From: the human T2T-CHM13v2.0 reference genome, Homo sapiens
NCBI RefSeq assembly: GCF_009914755.1
Contig: NC_060931.1
Reading direction: 5' to 3' (one strand)
DNA: 64,000 bases
Position numbers and translations under genes: made by a program. A model generated the notes under the pieces. It saw nothing but the letters and a program-made list of their open reading frames with translations, was not told the origin of the DNA and searched no databases. Positions 4,514-11,469 of this stretch are shown here, in pieces (within the stretch, counting starts at the first letter, position 1; the number at the start of each line of letters is the position of its first letter).

Positions 4514-6611
4514 TAAAATGGCTATAATAAGGATTAAGTACAATAAAGTTGATGGTGCACCTGACGGAAAGGTGGGATCGCAGTGCTAGTTGCTCTTTTC
4601 TCACCTTCAGATTTTATCTGAGAATGAAGAACATGCATTATGGTTTTGTTCCATAGAGAGCAACCCACATTTCCCTCTGCATTTTAAATTTTAGCAAAAC
4701 TCCAAGATCAAGAGCCTGTCTTAAATATTCAAAAAATGTATCATAAATAATGAAAATAAAATGAAATTGTCTTGGACTTCAATGAGCAAATCTCCATGCC
4801 TTCCACAATAGTGTTAAATAGACGGATGTCTTCTTTCATGTCAACGAGAAATAGTTTTCACAGTGGATAACTTATTTTAATATAATGAGTTAAAAATTGA
4901 AGAAGCATCTGCACCTGTCATTTCATTGTCATTAGAAGGAAAAAGTAGATTTTACAACACCAAAGTCAAAACTACTAGAAAATTGAAGAATATATCCTAC
5001 ATCAACACTAAAAGACTCCATCCTGTATGTTAATTCAGTGTCTTATTTGGAATCATGTTTCATTGATAAAGTATCTTGGTGGACCCCTAAAGCAGTGCAA
5101 ATTAAAACAAGATATTTCTCCTGGTATAGAAGATACATGAATAGCACTAATAAAAATAATCTAAGACCAAACCATCCATGATGTCATGGTATAGATTCTG
5201 TGGAATTAACAGTAAACTAACTGTTGGGGTATGAACATAACTGATTGTTTAGTTAAAAAAAAAGGTAATATTTCTGTTCATACTAACATAGGTCTTTGGG
5301 TGGTACTGATTGATCGATAAGAGGTAAAAAATCACTATATTAAGTCTATTGCCAACTTCATTCCAGAGTGAGGCATGGTAAATCATTTGTAATGAATCTA
5401 GTGGTGATGGCTTTCTAGGGGTTTTACTGTTTATCACATAATGTAAAGTAAATTCTAGAATGATTGGACTCATTTTAGTAGCTATAATCTACCCAAAATT
5501 CAGTATAAAAGAGAAAATATTAAGGACCTAAGAGGTATTAATCCACTTAAATGAATTTACATAATAAAAAATAAAATGAGAAAAATTCAGATAACGAGTC
5601 TTCCTTAAATAGGGAAGATTATATCATCTATTAGAAAATAACATATAGTAAAAGACAAAACAATGAGTTGAAGATTAAAAATAATTTCTTCTAGTGAGCA
5701 TTTTTAAAATATATGGTTTTTTAACATATAACCTTTATATGTACAGTTGAGATTTAATGTAATACATAAATGTTTACATCCACACATGTATACTATAGTA
5801 AAGATTTTAAAAATGAAGATTTAAAAACATGCTTGTAAATAATTTATGAAAAAAGAAGATGTCATATTGGAAAACTGAATAATTCTCAGAAATGAATAAT
5901 AAACAAAACACTACATATCGATTCTAGTAGAATTCTAGCAATTCTGGTAGCAATGAAACTTCTATAGAAAGAGTAAAGTATATTCTGTAAATTTTTTTTA
6001 TCAGAAAACAATAAAATCCGAAAATAAACAAGCCCAGAAACCTACTTAAGCACAAAGAAACGGAATGGAGAATACAGGAGAAAGTAAATAAATAAAATAT
6101 TTGCAGAAATTAATAAAATAGACTACAAACATACAATAGAAAGCATGGAAAGTAAGAAGTTTATTATTTGATAACTCCAATTCAAAATGCATATAAATAC
6201 TTTTAAATGAATGAATGAATAAGCATAAAGAAATAAAATAACACTGGCAAATTTAATCAGACATAAATTAAAAAGTAAGGAAGGCACAAATAAAAATTAA
6301 AAATTAAAATAGGAATACAGTTCAGGATAAAATAGATTATAAAGTTAACTAGAAAATTCCAATTACAAAATTAATTTATAAACTTGAAAAGTTATATATA
6401 ATAAACCATCTATATAAAATTAACCATGTAACTTCTTACAATTGGTTCATAAATATCTGAAGAATCCTATATTTTAAAATTTCAACCAGTAATTTAAAAA
6501 TCTTGTAATACCAGACTAAAAAAAGATAATTTACATTCCAACTCTTCCCATGAAGCTAATGTAACCTAAACATATGAAAGAGACATGACTCAGGTAAGAA
6601 AGGAACATACA

Positions 6612-7964
6612 CCCTCAGAAATAATACCACACATCTACAACCATCTGATCTTTGACAAACCTCACAAAAACAAGAAATGGGGAAAGGATTTCCTATTTAA
6701 TAAATGGTGCTGGGAAAACTGGCTAGCCATATGTAGAAAGCTGAAACTGGATCCCTTCCTTACACCTTATACAAAAATCAATTCAAGATGGATTAAAGAC
6801 TTAAATGTTAGACCTAAAACCATAAAAACCCTAGAAGAAAATCTAGGCAATACCATTCAGGACACAGGCATGGGCAAGGACTTCATGTCTAAAACACCAA
6901 AAGCAATGGCAACAAAAGCCAAACTTGCCAAATGGGATCTAATTAAACTAAAGAGCTTCTGCACAGCAAAAGAAACTACCACCAGAGTGAACAGGCAACC
7001 TACAGAATGGGAGAAGATTTTTGCAATCTACTCTTCTGACAAAAGGCTAATATCCAGAATCTATAAAGAACTCAAACAAATTTACAAGAAAAAAAACAAA
7101 CCCCATCAAAAAGTGGGCAAAGGATATGAACAGACACTTCTCAAAAGAAGACATTTATGCAGCCAAAAGACACATGAAAAAATGCTCATCATCACTGGCC
7201 ATCAGAGAAATGCAAATCAAAACCACAATGAGATACCATCTCATGCCAGTTAGAATGGCGATCATTAAAAAGTCAGGAAACAACAGGTGCTGGAGAGGAT
7301 GTGGAGAAATAGGAATGATTTTACACTGTTGGTGGGACTGTAAACTAGTTCAACCATTGTGGAAGACAGTGTGACAATTCCTCAAGGATCTAGAACTAGA
7401 AATACCATTTGACCCAGCCATCCCATTACTGGGTATATACCCAAAGGATTATAAATCATGCTGCTATAAAGACACATGCACACGTATGTTTATTGCGGCA
7501 CTATTCACAATAGCAAAGACTTGGAACCAATCCAAATGTCCATCAATGATGGACTGGATTAAGAAAATGTGGCACATATACACCATGGAATACTATGCAG
7601 CCATAAAAAAGGATGAGTTCATGTCCTTTTTAGGGACATGAATGAAGCTGGAAACCATCATTCTCAGCAAACTATCACAAGGACAAAAAACCAAACACCG
7701 CATGTTTTCACTCATAGGTGGGAACTGAACAATGAGAACACTTGGACATAGGAAGGGGAACATCACACACCAGGGCCTGTTTTGGGCTTGGGGGAGGGGG
7801 AAGGGATAGCATTAGGAGATATACCTAATGCAAATGATGAGTTAATGGGTGCAGCGCATGAACATGGCACATGTATACATATGTAACAAACCTGCACGTT
7901 GTGCACATGTACCCTAGAACTTAAAGTATAATAATAAAATAAATAATAAATAAATAGAAAAAAA
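6612..7964 (+). mobile_element. 5'-truncated L1PA (PA4/PA5-like): ORF2 C-terminus, 3' UTR, poly(A)
   Basis: ORFs 6585-7253 and 7126-7374 translate to L1 ORF2 (FNKWCWENW..., [13 protein letters not shown]); L1PA 3' end ...gtaccctagaacttaaagtataataat. Confidence 0.97.
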
Positions 7965-8220
7965 TTAACACTGGAAATTTTTTAAATATGGGATGTAAGT
8001 GCCAGATCAGAAGTTGTACTTAAGGATTTTATGTGACTCTCCTGTGTTAGCTGGAAACATCACCACAATAAGAAAGAGGCGACTCTAGAATTAGGAAGCA
8101 ATACTTCTGAATCATTATCAGTAATGTGATAAGGGTTACCATAAATTGCTTGATTTTACTGTGCTTCACTCACCACACTGAAAATGGGGTGATTAAAATT
8201 ACCTTCTCTTTAAAAAAAAA
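7965..8220 (+). other. L1 3' transduction (unique DNA, ATTAAA, second poly(A))
   Basis: TSD aagaaaggaacataca at 6596-6611 and 8221-8236 encloses both the L1 and this segment; ATTAAA 8192-8197; A-run 8212-8222. Confidence 0.9.
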
Positions 8221-8763
8221 AAGAAAGGAACATACAATTCAATTTTACTCATTAACATAAGTGTACAAATCCTAAACATTATATGATTAAACCAAGTACA
8301 TTAACATGTAAGACAAATCATCATGTACATAGCTAATTTTCTGCTGTTAAAAAATGTGTGGATGAAAAACAGAATAAGCATTAATCAAATTGATGTAATT
8401 CACCACTTATGAATTAATATGATTATTTCAATAATATGTAGAGTAACTGTAAGATGAAAATTAACACTCATTCACTGTAAAATTTAAAAATAATTAAGTG
8501 GCTAGAAGAGAACTTCCTGAACTTGAAAACATGTTCCATATATTTGAAAATCTATCCAACCCTACAGAACATATCTTTCTCATAGGTTACCTGTAAAAAT
8601 AATTATTTAACAAATCAAGGAAAAGACAAGGATGCCAACTATCACAGCTTCTTGAAACATGTTATAGAATTTCCTAGCCAATGGCAGTAAATTTGTCTTA
8701 AATAATGAGGTGAGCTTTAAAAGAAATAAACATGATGACTGTATTTTCCCTTAACTCAGTTAG

Positions 8764-8890
8764 GGATTTGGATCCTGCTCCTAATCCACCTCGGTTTCCA
8801 TCGCAGGTGATTAAAGCAACATTTGCCTATATCAGCAATTGTCATAAAACCAAGTTAAAAAGCATTTTAGAAATTCTTTCCAAAAGCCCT
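8764..8890 (+). pseudogene. ATM: Orphan copy of a 127-nt ATM coding exon (recalled as c.4110-4236; exon 28, or exon 30 in old numbering)
   Basis: ttttcccttaactcagttAG|GGATTTGGAT ... AAAAGCCCT|GTAAGT; open reading frame; no neighbouring ATM exons in window. Confidence 0.92.
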
Positions 8891-9762
8891 GTAAGTATAC
8901 ATGATGAGTTTAATAATAGAGCATTCCTTCTTTTTTAGGTAAAAAAAATCTTTGTAAGTACATCTTAAAGAGGAAAAGTAAACAAATGAAAAATTTATCT
9001 CATAATTAAAAAGGAAAACATTCATTTACAAGTTTAAATGGTATTTTAATTGTCAGCATTAATTGAAATATGTTACATATGAGAACAGAATCTTGTGACA
9101 CTTTAGTCATATATTAGCTCAGGGAATATATCTACTTTTTCATAGGAATATACTATTTTATTGTAGTTTACTTTCTGAAAATTAAATAAAATACAGTCAT
9201 CATTTGAAAAAGTTTTGCTCATAGACCAGTGAACTTCCAAAATGAAAATTTAGATTTTAATAACCCCCAAATTCAAAACTATTTTTCTACTGAAAAACTA
9301 TACTTTCAATAAAATCACAAATGACATATCACAGTCCAGATATATAAATCAGATTATCTAAATACCTTTCACCCTCAATAACTTAAATAATCTTAAATGA
9401 TCTTATAATAATTTTATTAAAAAATCTTATAAAGTTAAAAGGCAATTCCACAAATGAGCCTCAGTATTACTTCAGATCAGAATCAAAGCTCTATGCCAGT
9501 ACTGTAAAAGCAGTATTTTAAGACATGGCAATTAACACTTATTTAGACAGCGTGAAATTACATATGTGAAAGTACTTTCTCAGATATTATTACTATTTTA
9601 TATGCCCAGCATAGTAGGGCACATTAAAAAAAAAAATAAAGCATATTTTCAAGTAGCTTACAATCAAGCCAGGAAAACAACTCTAATGTTCATATACAAC
9701 TCAGAGACATTCACATCCAAATTAAATTGTACAGATAATAAAGTACAATAAAGAAAAGGTGG

Positions 9763-9859
9763 GGCTGGGTACGGTGGCTCATGCTTGTAAACCCAGCACT
9801 TTGGTTGGCCAACACGGGGGAATCACTTGAGGCCAGAAGTTCAAGACCAGCATGTGCAA
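9763..9859 (+). mobile_element. Partial Alu left monomer inside the ATM-derived insert
   Basis: ggctgggtacggtggctcatgcttgtaaacccagcactttgg... ends abruptly in the A-tail. Confidence 0.85.
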
Positions 9860-10219
9860 AAAAAATAAATAAATAAAAAATAAACATAATGAAAATAGCT
9901 GATTATATAATTGTCTACAATGAAAATTCAAGAGAATCTATAGAAAATGTATTATATTTCATTAAAAGATGTAGACAGAGCAATATATAAAGGTATAGAT
10001 AAAGGATTAATGTATAAGAATGAACTGCACTTTTATGTACAATCAGGAGTTAGGTAATTAAACTTTTTAAAATAACAATCATAGTAGCCATAAGTTACAT
10101 GATGCCTAGGAAAAAATTTAACCAGGATAATCCAAAATATTTATAGAAAAAAATTTAGGCCTTTTTTCTATGGCACTATATAAAGCTAGGCATTTTTTCC
10201 AATAGAGAAAGACAGACAA

Positions 10220-10424
10220 GGAGGAAGAGAGTGAGGGCAGTTGAGAGAGACAGTGAGAGAGACAGAGAGAGATAGACAAATTGGAAGACTTTTGACCTCA
10301 TGTTACTAGATGCAGAAGATTATTTAACATAGTACTATATCCATTTATAGTATAAAAAGATACACAGATGATGGATAGAGACATGATAGATGATAGATGA
10401 TGATGATGTTGTAGAGAGAGAGAG

Positions 10425-10452
<28 letters not shown>
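10220..10452. repeat. (GA)n / (GATA)n / (GACA)n simple repeats
   Basis: Directly visible. Confidence 0.9.
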
Positions 10453-10455
<3 letters not shown>

Positions 10456-11469
10456 CAGATAGACAGATAGACCGATATCTTCCTTAACTTAATAAAAAAT
10501 ATTCATTCTAAACCTCCAGAATATGATTACACTGGATTTGCAAAGTTAAGGATTTGTCATAGCATGTTTTGGCAAAAATTTGAAGAGATGAGCAGTCACT
10601 TGCTGTTGTACTTGCTGGTATCTTTGGAAAAAAATTAGAGTTTATTTTGCAAATAAACATGCCTGTTCCTTAGAATCCTGCAGCAATTTGACTTCTCTAG
10701 ATATAGTTTCTGTACAAACCATTACATATAACTGTCAAGGAATGGGCACATGAATGCTTATAGCAACACTATTTTGACAGCAAAACTTGGAAATATCCCA
10801 AATGCTCATCAGGAAGAATAGGAATATAGAATGGGCATGTAGTATATATGAAATACTCATAGTGTAGGTGAAACAATATGGATGTATGGTAGAAGCATAA
10901 TATTGAAAAAATATTTTAAGAGATGTGTATATATATATATATGCTTTTTTTGCATAAATCTCTAGTATAAGAAAAACTTTTGAAATAACATATACATTGG
11001 TGTGGTAACATTTTATTTTTTGAAAAGCAAAGCAATGATGAATGCGCCCAAGAGGAGAGGAGGCAAGGGCAGTGTTTGCTGAGAAGCACTAAAGGTTGTC
11101 TCAGTGCCATTTATGTTATGCATGTACTGAAGTAATATGTTGAAGACCTTGCACTTTCTCTTTTGTATCAACTGCTAGACAACATAATCACAAAGAAAGA
11201 AAGAATGTCAGGTTTAAAATACAGCTAACTAGAAACATAAATATGTAAAATGTAGTCATTAAAAAAGCTCAATGCATAGATTAAACAATAGATTAGATAG
11301 TGGTGAAGAAAGAATTATTGAAATGAATGATTACTGAATTGGAAGATATATTGTGGAGATTACAGAATTCAGCAAAGAGAAGAGAGCAAGTCAAAAAAAG
11401 AAAGATATGCAAACACACATTGCACGTGCTCTGAAAACACAAGCGGTAGTATACTTGTCATAATATTCA

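What the first reader, a model, noticed from the sequence alone, without database searches (positions are those of the whole stretch)
8732..9860. Twin-priming inversion implies the mobilised RNA was antisense to ATM
Seen: atgatgactgtatttt (8732-8747), just upstream of the exon acceptor, reappears as its exact reverse complement at 9188-9203. Inference: 9188-9858 is the intron upstream of the exon in inverted orientation, with a 16-bp duplication at the breakpoint. In twin priming the poly(A)-adjacent block keeps the RNA orientation, so the template would be an ATM-antisense transcript, and the exon reads 'sense' only because it is in the flipped 5' block. The target sequence (aaacataatga) also shares microhomology with the insert start (aaacatgatga). 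This would be fossil evidence of a germline antisense RNA inside ATM. AATAAA motifs are at 9737-9742 and 9747-9752, more than 100 nt before the tail, so the polyadenylation mechanism is unclear.
Basis: partly seen in the sequence, partly recalled or inferred. Interest (0 to 1): 0.75.

Follow-up and report, generated by a model that had tools for sequence, protein, structure and literature searches.

The report
Inverted retrocopy of ATM-antisense RNA
A 1.1-kb piece of the ATM gene (one exon with its flanking introns) was copied from an RNA made on the opposite strand of ATM and pasted into chromosome 7 by the LINE-1 machinery, with its front half flipped; this is a tidy example of a known process, not a new one.

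Summary

- **Source mapping.** Window 8734-9190 matches chr11 108296458-108296914 on the plus (ATM-sense) strand at 97%. Window 9188-9859 matches the adjoining chr11 108295790-108296471 on the minus strand at 95%.
- **Overlap.** The two blocks share 11-14 nt of source. The 16-nt inverted repeat is this 14-nt overlap plus 2 nt (AT) that fit the target-site duplication.
- **Insertion hallmarks.** The insert is followed by an 18-nt A-rich tail that the source does not encode. It is flanked by an exact 10-nt duplication, AAATAAACAT.
- **Mechanism.** This is the geometry of LINE-1 target-primed reverse transcription with twin priming. The tail-adjacent block gives the RNA's sense, which is antisense to ATM.
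- **What remains open.** How the RNA got its tail is unexplained: the only AATAAA shared with the source lies 108 nt upstream. Nothing shows that the RNA was a stable or regulated transcript.
- **Origin of the RNA.** No L1 3' end was found within about 30 kb upstream.
- **Age and status.** Divergence of about 2.6% suggests an insertion in the great-ape stem. It is a new member of a known kind, of modest interest.

The parts
8724..8733 (+). 5' copy of the target-site duplication, AAATAAACAT. It could extend left to 8719 or right to 8738 if mismatches are allowed.
   Evidence: Exact 10-mer repeated at 9878-9887 (D1/D10, 27). Chance controls gave 1.1e-3 to 1.7e-3.
8734..9190 (+). Block A, the inverted cDNA primed from the top strand. 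It reads ATM-sense: 26 nt of upstream intron, the exon, and 300 nt of downstream intron.
   Evidence: Equals C11:108296458-108296914 plus strand, 97%; L003 1501-1957, 445 of 455 aligned bases identical, 2 indels; reciprocal hit.
8760..8890 (+). Copy of the ATM exon encoding residues about 1370-1412. The frame is open, with 2 amino-acid changes (H to R, H to Q).
   Evidence: phmmer against PDB ATM chains, E 8.5e-21, chain residues 1371-1412; acceptor and donor context read.
8734..8747 (+). First copy of the 14 nt present in both blocks (source L003 1501-1514).
   Evidence: part of inverted repeat I5.
9188..9201 (-). Second, inverted copy of the same 14 nt. Its first 3 nt (9188-9190, AAA) can equally be the end of block A, so this is junction microhomology and the overlap is 11-14 nt.
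   Evidence: Block A alignment ends at 9190 and block B starts at 9188.
9188..9859 (+). Block B, the non-inverted cDNA block next to the tail. The top strand is the sense of the template RNA and is antisense to ATM (upstream intron).
   Evidence: Equals C11:108295790-108296471 minus strand, 95%; L003 1514 down to 833, 647 of 672 identical, 2 indels; reciprocal hit.
9762..9859 (+). First ~97 nt of the Alu that lies in the ATM intron (Alu-sense on the RNA). The insert ends inside it.
   Evidence: Carries the source Alu's idiosyncratic bases. The source Alu is full length, L003 about 627-930.
9747..9752 (+). The only AATAAA shared with the source, 108 nt before the tail. 9737-9742 is AATAAC in the source.
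9860..9877 (+). A-rich tail (A6 T A3 T A3 T A3), not encoded at the source.
   Evidence: The source continues CACAGTGAAACCCC... at this point. Only 10 tail-like A tracts occur on the plus strand of the 64-kb window.
9878..9887 (+). 3' copy of the target-site duplication, AAATAAACAT.

Best explanation
Window 8734-9877 is a single LINE-1-mediated insertion made by target-primed reverse transcription. It is a 1125-nt copy of unspliced RNA transcribed antisense to ATM, spanning one ATM exon and both flanking introns. Proposed steps: (1) L1 endonuclease nicked the bottom strand at the T-rich site complementary to AAAAGAAATAAACAT. (2) The T-rich end primed on an A tail at the RNA's 3' end, and cDNA ran from source position 833 to about 1514, giving block B. 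(3) After the top strand was cut 10-15 nt away, its 3' end (...AAACAT) annealed inside the same RNA at about position 1500 and primed a second cDNA towards the RNA's 5' end, 1501 to 1957, giving block A. (4) The two cDNA ends were joined at a 3-nt AAA microhomology. The result is TSD, inverted block, non-inverted block, A tail, TSD. Shown here: the strands, breakpoints, overlap, untemplated tail and duplication. Inferred: the order of events, the identity of the enzyme, and how the RNA acquired its tail. For the tail I favour non-canonical adenylation of a nuclear RNA end, or an early template switch from an L1 poly(A) tail.
For: (1) Strands and adjacency: block A matches the plus strand and block B the minus strand, and the two are contiguous on chr11 with an 11-14-nt overlap. 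(2) This overlap fits published 5'-inverted insertions, where the overlap median is 12 bp (quartiles 4-17) and the TSD median is 13 bp; 3 of 23 processed pseudogenes there were 5'-inverted (PMC12016303, sections read). (3) The tail is absent from the source. (4) An exact 10-nt TSD abuts the first ATM base on the left and the tail on the right. Chance controls gave 214 of 200000, 11 of 6744 and 110 of 63980. (5) The inverted block starts exactly at the TSD, with similarity between target and source (window TAAACAT versus source TAAA-AC) and AAA at the internal junction. (6) No ATM-derived sequence lies outside 8734-9859, and there is no third copy in the genome. (7) A TTTT/A endonuclease motif lies on the bottom strand 5 nt beyond the exact TSD edge (motif list).
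Against: No AAUAAA-type signal lies within 10-35 nt of the tail site, and the nearest shared AATAAA is 108 nt upstream, so ordinary polyadenylation of the RNA is not supported. At the exact 10-nt TSD edge the nick context is ATTT/C, not a listed motif. The canonical TTTT/A reading requires a 15-nt TSD with 2 mismatches in the 3' copy. The empty site could not be examined because the flanks are unique in this genome and no other primate genome is available. The TSD is A-rich and sits beside an A-rich tail, so part of the match carries little information. No antisense transcript at this ATM position was found in print, and no RNA data could be consulted.
Confidence: 0.85

Rival explanations
1. 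Same antisense RNA and twin priming, but the tail is not a poly(A) tail. Reverse transcription was primed on the A-rich middle linker of the source Alu (AAAAATATAAAAAA, 23 nt beyond the end of block B), and the 23 nt in between were skipped or later deleted.
For: The source has this linker 23 nt downstream. The tail is short (18 nt) and T-interrupted, like a linker. One Alu on chr17 (L005) shows GGGCAA joined directly to its A-rich linker, so this loss does occur. That locus was picked by similarity to the query including the tail, so it says nothing about frequency.
Against: It needs an extra 23-nt deletion plus several base changes in 18 nt, where about 2.6% divergence predicts fewer than one change. 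The observed A6TA3TA3TA3 does not align convincingly to CCA5TATA6.
Confidence: 0.07
2. Orphan 3' transduction. The antisense RNA was read-through from an L1 (or SVA) lying in ATM in antisense orientation, and 5' truncation removed all of the element.
For: It would supply a promoter for antisense transcription and cis-preference for L1 proteins. The window holds a possible L1 3' transduction only 500 bp away.
Against: blastn with a 1.35-kb L1 3'-end probe (window 6609-7960; a 961-nt subsegment of it, 7000-7960, is high-copy) found 0 hits in 31.9 kb covering the source and about 30 kb upstream. Of 68 ORFs of 45 aa or more in the first 10 kb, the only reverse-transcriptase hit is on the ATM-sense strand. 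It does not solve the tail problem. SVA and elements absent from this genome were not tested.
Confidence: 0.04
3. Two templates. Block B was copied from an antisense RNA, then the same growing cDNA switched to a sense ATM pre-mRNA at position 1957 and copied back to 1501, with no top-strand priming.
For: Template switching by L1 reverse transcriptase is documented (PMC4476161, passages read). The AAA at the junction could mediate a switch.
Against: The end of the second block (1501) would lie within 14 nt of the end of the first (1514) only by coincidence, whereas twin priming predicts it. An antisense RNA is still needed for block B.
Confidence: 0.04
4. DNA-level event. An ATM fragment with a fold-back inversion was captured at a chromosome break on chr7, and the tail and duplication are pre-existing A-rich target sequence.
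For: The local sequence is 70% A+T, and the TSD motif resembles the AAAT units of the tail.
Against: It requires an A tract to sit exactly at the end of homology (10 such tracts on this strand in 64 kb) and an exact 10-mer repeat at the other end (about 1e-3), jointly about 1e-6 by my arithmetic. It also leaves the twin-priming geometry unexplained.
Confidence: 0.03

Closest known systems
5'-inverted L1 and processed-pseudogene insertions made by twin priming (Ostertag and Kazazian 2001, recalled and cited within PMC12016303; the original paper is not held)
   Same: Inverted 5' block, non-inverted block next to the tail, the two blocks adjacent in the template with a short overlap, a single TSD pair, and microhomology at the junctions.
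   Different: The template is neither L1 nor a spliced mRNA. It is an unspliced RNA from the strand opposite a protein-coding gene.
Processed pseudogenes / retrocopies of mRNAs
   Same: Trans-mobilisation of a cellular RNA by L1, with an A tail and a TSD.
   Different: Both intron flanks are retained and the RNA sense is antisense to the gene. No polyadenylation signal lies at the usual distance from the tail.
Poly(A)-extended snRNA pseudogenes and U5/L1, tRNA/L1 and 5S/L1 chimeras (PMC4476161; bioRxiv 10.1101/2025.02.02.635956)
   Same: RNAs that are not normally polyadenylated end up with A tails and TSDs. The proposed routes are nuclear surveillance adenylation or an early template switch from the L1 tail. 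Antisense-oriented partners are explained by twin priming.
   Different: Here both blocks come from one RNA species, and that RNA is a long Pol II-type transcript rather than a small structured RNA.
L1 3' transduction, including orphan transductions
   Same: Unique non-L1 sequence is mobilised with a tail and a TSD.
   Different: No L1 3' end was found upstream of the source in about 30 kb.

Membership tests
L1-mediated (TPRT) retrocopy | Sequence copied from a distant source locus, bounded sharply | tested here: met
   Only chr11 108295790-108296914 matches. Homology stops at 8734 and 9859.
L1-mediated (TPRT) retrocopy | 3' A tail not encoded at the source | tested here: met
   An 18-nt A-rich run at 9860-9877; the source continues with Alu sequence.
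L1-mediated (TPRT) retrocopy | Target-site duplication of about 7-20 bp flanking insert plus tail | tested here: met
   Exact 10-mer at 8724-8733 and 9878-9887; chance about 1e-3.
L1-mediated (TPRT) retrocopy | L1 endonuclease motif (TTTT/A and variants) at the first-strand nick | tested here: inconclusive
   ATTT/C at the exact TSD edge. TTTT/A lies 5 nt further and implies a 15-nt TSD with 2 mismatches (motif list).
L1-mediated (TPRT) retrocopy | Empty site in an outgroup or paralogue | not testable with these tools
   The flanks are single-copy and no other primate genome is held.
Twin-priming 5' inversion | Inverted block at the 5' end, non-inverted block next to the tail | tested here: met
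Twin-priming 5' inversion | The two blocks abut in the template with a small overlap or gap | tested here: met
   11-14-nt overlap (L003 1501-1514). The published overlap median is 12 bp.
Twin-priming 5' inversion | Microhomology where the top strand primed and at the internal junction | tested here: met
   AAA at 9188-9190. Target ...TAAACAT versus source TAAA-AC at the 5' junction.
Processed pseudogene (spliced mRNA copy) | Introns removed; sense of the RNA equals sense of the gene | tested here: not met
   Intron sequence is kept on both sides of the exon, and the tail-adjacent block is antisense to ATM.
Orphan L1 3' transduction | Source L1 immediately upstream of the transduced sequence, same orientation | tested here: not met
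   0 blastn hits of an L1 3' probe in 31.9 kb. 0 of 68 ORFs with L1 domains on the minus strand in 10 kb.
Canonically polyadenylated transcript | AAUAAA-type hexamer 10-35 nt before the cleavage site | tested here: not met
   The nearest shared AATAAA is 108 nt upstream. I saw no variant hexamer in the last 35 nt; that check used a recalled list of variants.

The most novel reading that the evidence does not exclude
The template was not transcriptional noise. It was either a recurrent germline antisense transcript crossing ATM exons, for example read-through from the convergent neighbour C11orf65 (whose minus-strand orientation and 3' end about 19 kb upstream I recall from memory and did not verify), or an exosome-targeted nuclear RNA that was oligoadenylated at a breakage point inside an Alu. 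The fossil would then show that L1 samples unspliced, surveillance-tagged nuclear RNAs in the germline.
Probability: 0.15. Interest if true: 0.5.

Novelty: new member of a known kind. Interest (0 to 1): 0.35.

Why it matters
This insert lets the strand of a long-vanished RNA be read from DNA alone, because the tail and the twin-priming geometry fix the template's sense. It documents that, roughly 10-25 million years ago, a heritable cell lineage contained an unspliced RNA antisense to ATM that ran through a coding exon. It also adds a case of an RNA with no normal polyadenylation signal gaining an A tail before or during L1 capture. In practice, the chr7 copy is 97% identical to an ATM exon and its splice sites, so it could attract mis-mapped short reads in ATM testing. 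None of this changes the current understanding of L1 biology.

Tried and rejected
- **Paralogous empty site.** Both 600-nt flanks were searched in the genome. The left flank gave only a chr6 match further upstream and three weak short hits. The right flank gave only GA-rich tandem-repeat hits from about 10200 onward. Nothing was usable.
- **Structure bridging the distant AAUAAA to the tail site.** I tested an idea borrowed from HTLV-1, which I recall from memory. The fold of the 176-nt source RNA had z = -1.08, with 28 of 200 shuffles folding at least as well, and the tail site was not brought next to the signal. Rejected as unsupported.
- **Rfam on 7900-10600.** 0 matches at E up to 0.1.
- **Other retrocopies from the ATM neighbourhood.**
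  - The 3457-nt query found only the two chr7 blocks besides Alus.
  - The 10-kb query was swamped by Alus: 39 of 70119 candidates were scored and even the self-hit was not listed. Uninformative.
- **Pfam on three ORFs of the L1 probe.** 0 families. Probe identity rests on its more than 10000 genomic candidates (run on 7000-7960 of the probe), NCBI masking, and my recollection of the L1 3' end.
- **Chimeric origin of the Alu piece.** Its divergence is higher (8 of 98 versus 27 of 1029, Fisher p = 0.008). However, the changes split 4 on the source lineage, 3 on the copy and 1 unclear, judged against 5 other Alus, and the source's private bases are shared. No support.
- **Literature.**
  - No paper was found on an ATM fragment on chr7, on an ATM antisense RNA, or on C11orf65 orientation.
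  - The search failed on syntax and was rerun.
  - The Ostertag and Kazazian paper is not held.

Full report
**Observation**

The 16-nt string at 8732-8747 recurs as its exact reverse complement at 9188-9203. This is pair I5, and I read the sequence. It is the only perfect inverted pair of that length among the 23 pairs reported for 8300-10300.

**What the two halves are**

A search of the window's own assembly with 8700-9900 gave two non-repeat hits, both inside chr11.
- Window 8734-9190 equals C11:108296458-108296914 on the plus strand, at 97%.
- Window 9188-9859 equals C11:108295790-108296471 on the minus strand, at 95%.
- All other hits were Alu matches to 9715-9880.

The reciprocal search with 3457 nt of the chr11 locus returned the same two chr7 blocks with the same boundaries and nothing else but Alus.

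The exon in block A (8760-8890) translates without stops. It matches human ATM residues 1371-1412 in solved structures (E 8.5e-21), with two substitutions. The next ATM exon follows in the chr11 locus on the same strand. So ATM is on the plus strand of chr11, block A is ATM-sense, and block B is ATM-antisense.

Base-level alignments place block A at L003 1501-1957 and block B at L003 1514 down to 833. The source interval is therefore one continuous 1125 nt. The insert breaks it at about 1501/1514 and flips one part.

**The breakpoints**

- *Overlap.* Source positions 1501-1514 (GATGACTGTATTTT) occur in both blocks.
  - In block B the T is a C-to-T change.
  - In block A the AT at 8732-8733 is most simply the end of the target-site duplication, because AAATAAACAT at 8724-8733 recurs exactly at 9878-9887, right after the tail.
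- *Internal junction.* The bases AAA (9188-9190) fit the end of block A and the start of block B equally well. This is a 3-nt microhomology, and it makes the true overlap 11-14 nt.
- *5' junction.* The target (TAAACAT) resembles the source just before 1501 (TAAA-AC). The target bases after the duplication (AATGA) resemble the source GATGA. An alternative reading is therefore a 15-nt duplication, AAATAAACAT[G/A]ATGA, with one mismatch.

**The tail**

After the last source-matching bases (…GACCAGCATGTGCAA, 9859) come 18 nt of A6TA3TA3TA3, then the duplication. The source instead continues CACAGTGAAACCCCGTCTCTACC and then the A-rich middle linker of a full-length Alu (L003 about 627-930). The tail is therefore not templated at that position.

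**Controls**

- A 10-mer ending at a random point recurs within 45 nt after a point 1126 nt downstream in 214 of 200000 trials.
- For A/T-rich 10-mers the figure is 11 of 6744.
- Of all 63980 window 10-mers, 110 occur in the real 45 nt after the insert.
- Only 10 tail-like A tracts exist on the plus strand of the 64-kb window.
- By my arithmetic the joint coincidence is of order 1e-6.
- No ATM-derived sequence lies in the 600 nt on either side.

**Mechanism**

The layout is TSD, inverted block, non-inverted block, A tail, TSD, with the two blocks adjacent in the template and slightly overlapping. This is what twin priming produces. In that process a cDNA primed from the poly(A) tail stays non-inverted, and a second cDNA primed internally from the other DNA end is inverted (PMC12016303; abstract, background and the section on 5' inversions read).

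That study reports:
- overlaps with a median of 12 bp (quartiles 4-17);
- TSDs with a median of 13 bp;
- 5' inversions in 3 of 23 processed pseudogenes.

The present values (11-14 nt overlap, 10-15 nt TSD) are typical. The tail-adjacent block carries the sense of the RNA, and here it is ATM-antisense, so the template was an RNA antisense to ATM. Block A also needs an antisense template, because on the top strand it is the extended primer, that is, the complement of the template.

The endonuclease motif is ambiguous. The bottom strand reads ATGTTTATTT/CTTTT/AAAGC. The exact 10-nt duplication implies ATTT/C. The canonical TTTT/A, 5 nt further on, implies a 15-nt duplication whose 3' copy has 2 mismatches next to the tail.

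**How the RNA got a tail is not explained**

- Only the second AATAAA (9747-9752) exists in the source. The first is AATAAC there.
- The shared motif lies 108 nt before the tail.
- I saw no known variant hexamer in the last 35 nt; that check relies on a recalled list.
- Folding the source RNA from the signal to 40 nt beyond the site gave no significant structure (z = -1.08) and did not bring signal and site together.

Published routes for A tails on RNAs that lack normal polyadenylation are an early template switch from the L1 RNA's own poly(A), and nuclear surveillance adenylation (PMC4476161, passages read). Either would fit, and neither can be tested here.

A third route is priming on the Alu's A-rich linker 23 nt further on, with loss of the intervening 23 nt. 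It needs extra events. One chr17 Alu shows such a loss, but that locus was selected by similarity to the query.

**Where the antisense RNA came from**

- *Orphan 3' transduction from an antisense L1: no support.*
  - An L1 3'-end probe from the window (6609-7960; its 7000-7960 portion has more than 10000 genomic candidates) gave 0 blastn hits in 31.9 kb spanning the source and about 30 kb upstream.
  - Of 68 ORFs of 45 aa or more in the first 10 kb, the single reverse-transcriptase match is on the ATM-sense strand.
- *Read-through from C11orf65.* From memory, the neighbouring gene C11orf65 converges on ATM from the minus strand and ends roughly 19 kb upstream of this segment. Read-through from it is a candidate, but I could not verify the annotation (searches gave only locus lists).
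- *Literature.* Searches found no paper on an ATM antisense RNA or on this chr7 fragment.

**Age**

- Outside the Alu, 27 of 1029 aligned bases differ: 10 of 455 in block A and 17 of 574 in block B.
- With a recalled neutral rate of about 0.5-1.2e-9 per site per year and two diverging lineages, this gives roughly 11-26 million years. That places the insertion around the great-ape stem. This is an inference and was not tested.
- The 98-nt Alu piece is more diverged (8 of 98, Fisher p = 0.008). Compared with 5 other Alus, the changes split 4 on the source lineage, 3 on the copy and 1 unclear. This looks like faster Alu decay or conversion, not a foreign origin.

**Comparison and verdict**

It works like, and meets the tested criteria of, an L1-mediated retrocopy with a twin-priming inversion. 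It is not a processed pseudogene in the strict sense, because it is unspliced and antisense. It fails the test for an orphan transduction.

It is a new member of a known kind. The geometry is textbook, and the unusual part is the template. One fossil proves that the RNA existed once in a heritable lineage. It does not prove a stable antisense gene.

Noticed in passing
window 6596-8236: A second L1-mediated composite lies 500 bp upstream. It consists of a 5'-truncated L1 3' end (about 6612-7962, with its own A-rich tail), then 245 nt that match chr6 (C6:8267089-8267333, minus strand, 94%), then an A11 tail at 8212-8222 with ATTAAA about 14 nt before it. The whole is flanked by the duplication (AA)GAAAGGAACATACA at 6596-6611 and 8221-8236. 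It looks like an L1 3' transduction or an L1/mRNA template-switch chimera. The chr6 locus has no L1 upstream in this genome.
   Followed up: partly
window 9627-9637; L003 1057-1078: The antisense RNA carried an internal A run: 19-20 A in today's source and 11 A in the copy, a 9-nt length difference. It was not used for priming.
   Followed up: no
window 9762-9859: The Alu-derived end of the insert is about three times more diverged from its source than the rest (8 of 98 versus 27 of 1029). The changes fall on both lineages, including T-to-C changes in the source that created CpGs.
   Followed up: partly
L005 (C17:77156713-77156827): An Alu in which GGGCAA is joined directly to the A-rich middle linker, an internal loss of about 23 nt. 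It resembles the end of the chr7 insert plus its tail.
   Followed up: no
window 10200-10480: A GA-rich repeat region that is 75-83% similar to tandem arrays on chr1 (178.05 Mb), chr21 (41.02 Mb), chr22 and acrocentric short arms.
   Followed up: no
window 8760-8890: The copied ATM exon and its splice-site context are 97-98% identical to the real exon. Short reads from this chr7 copy could be mis-assigned to ATM.
   Followed up: no
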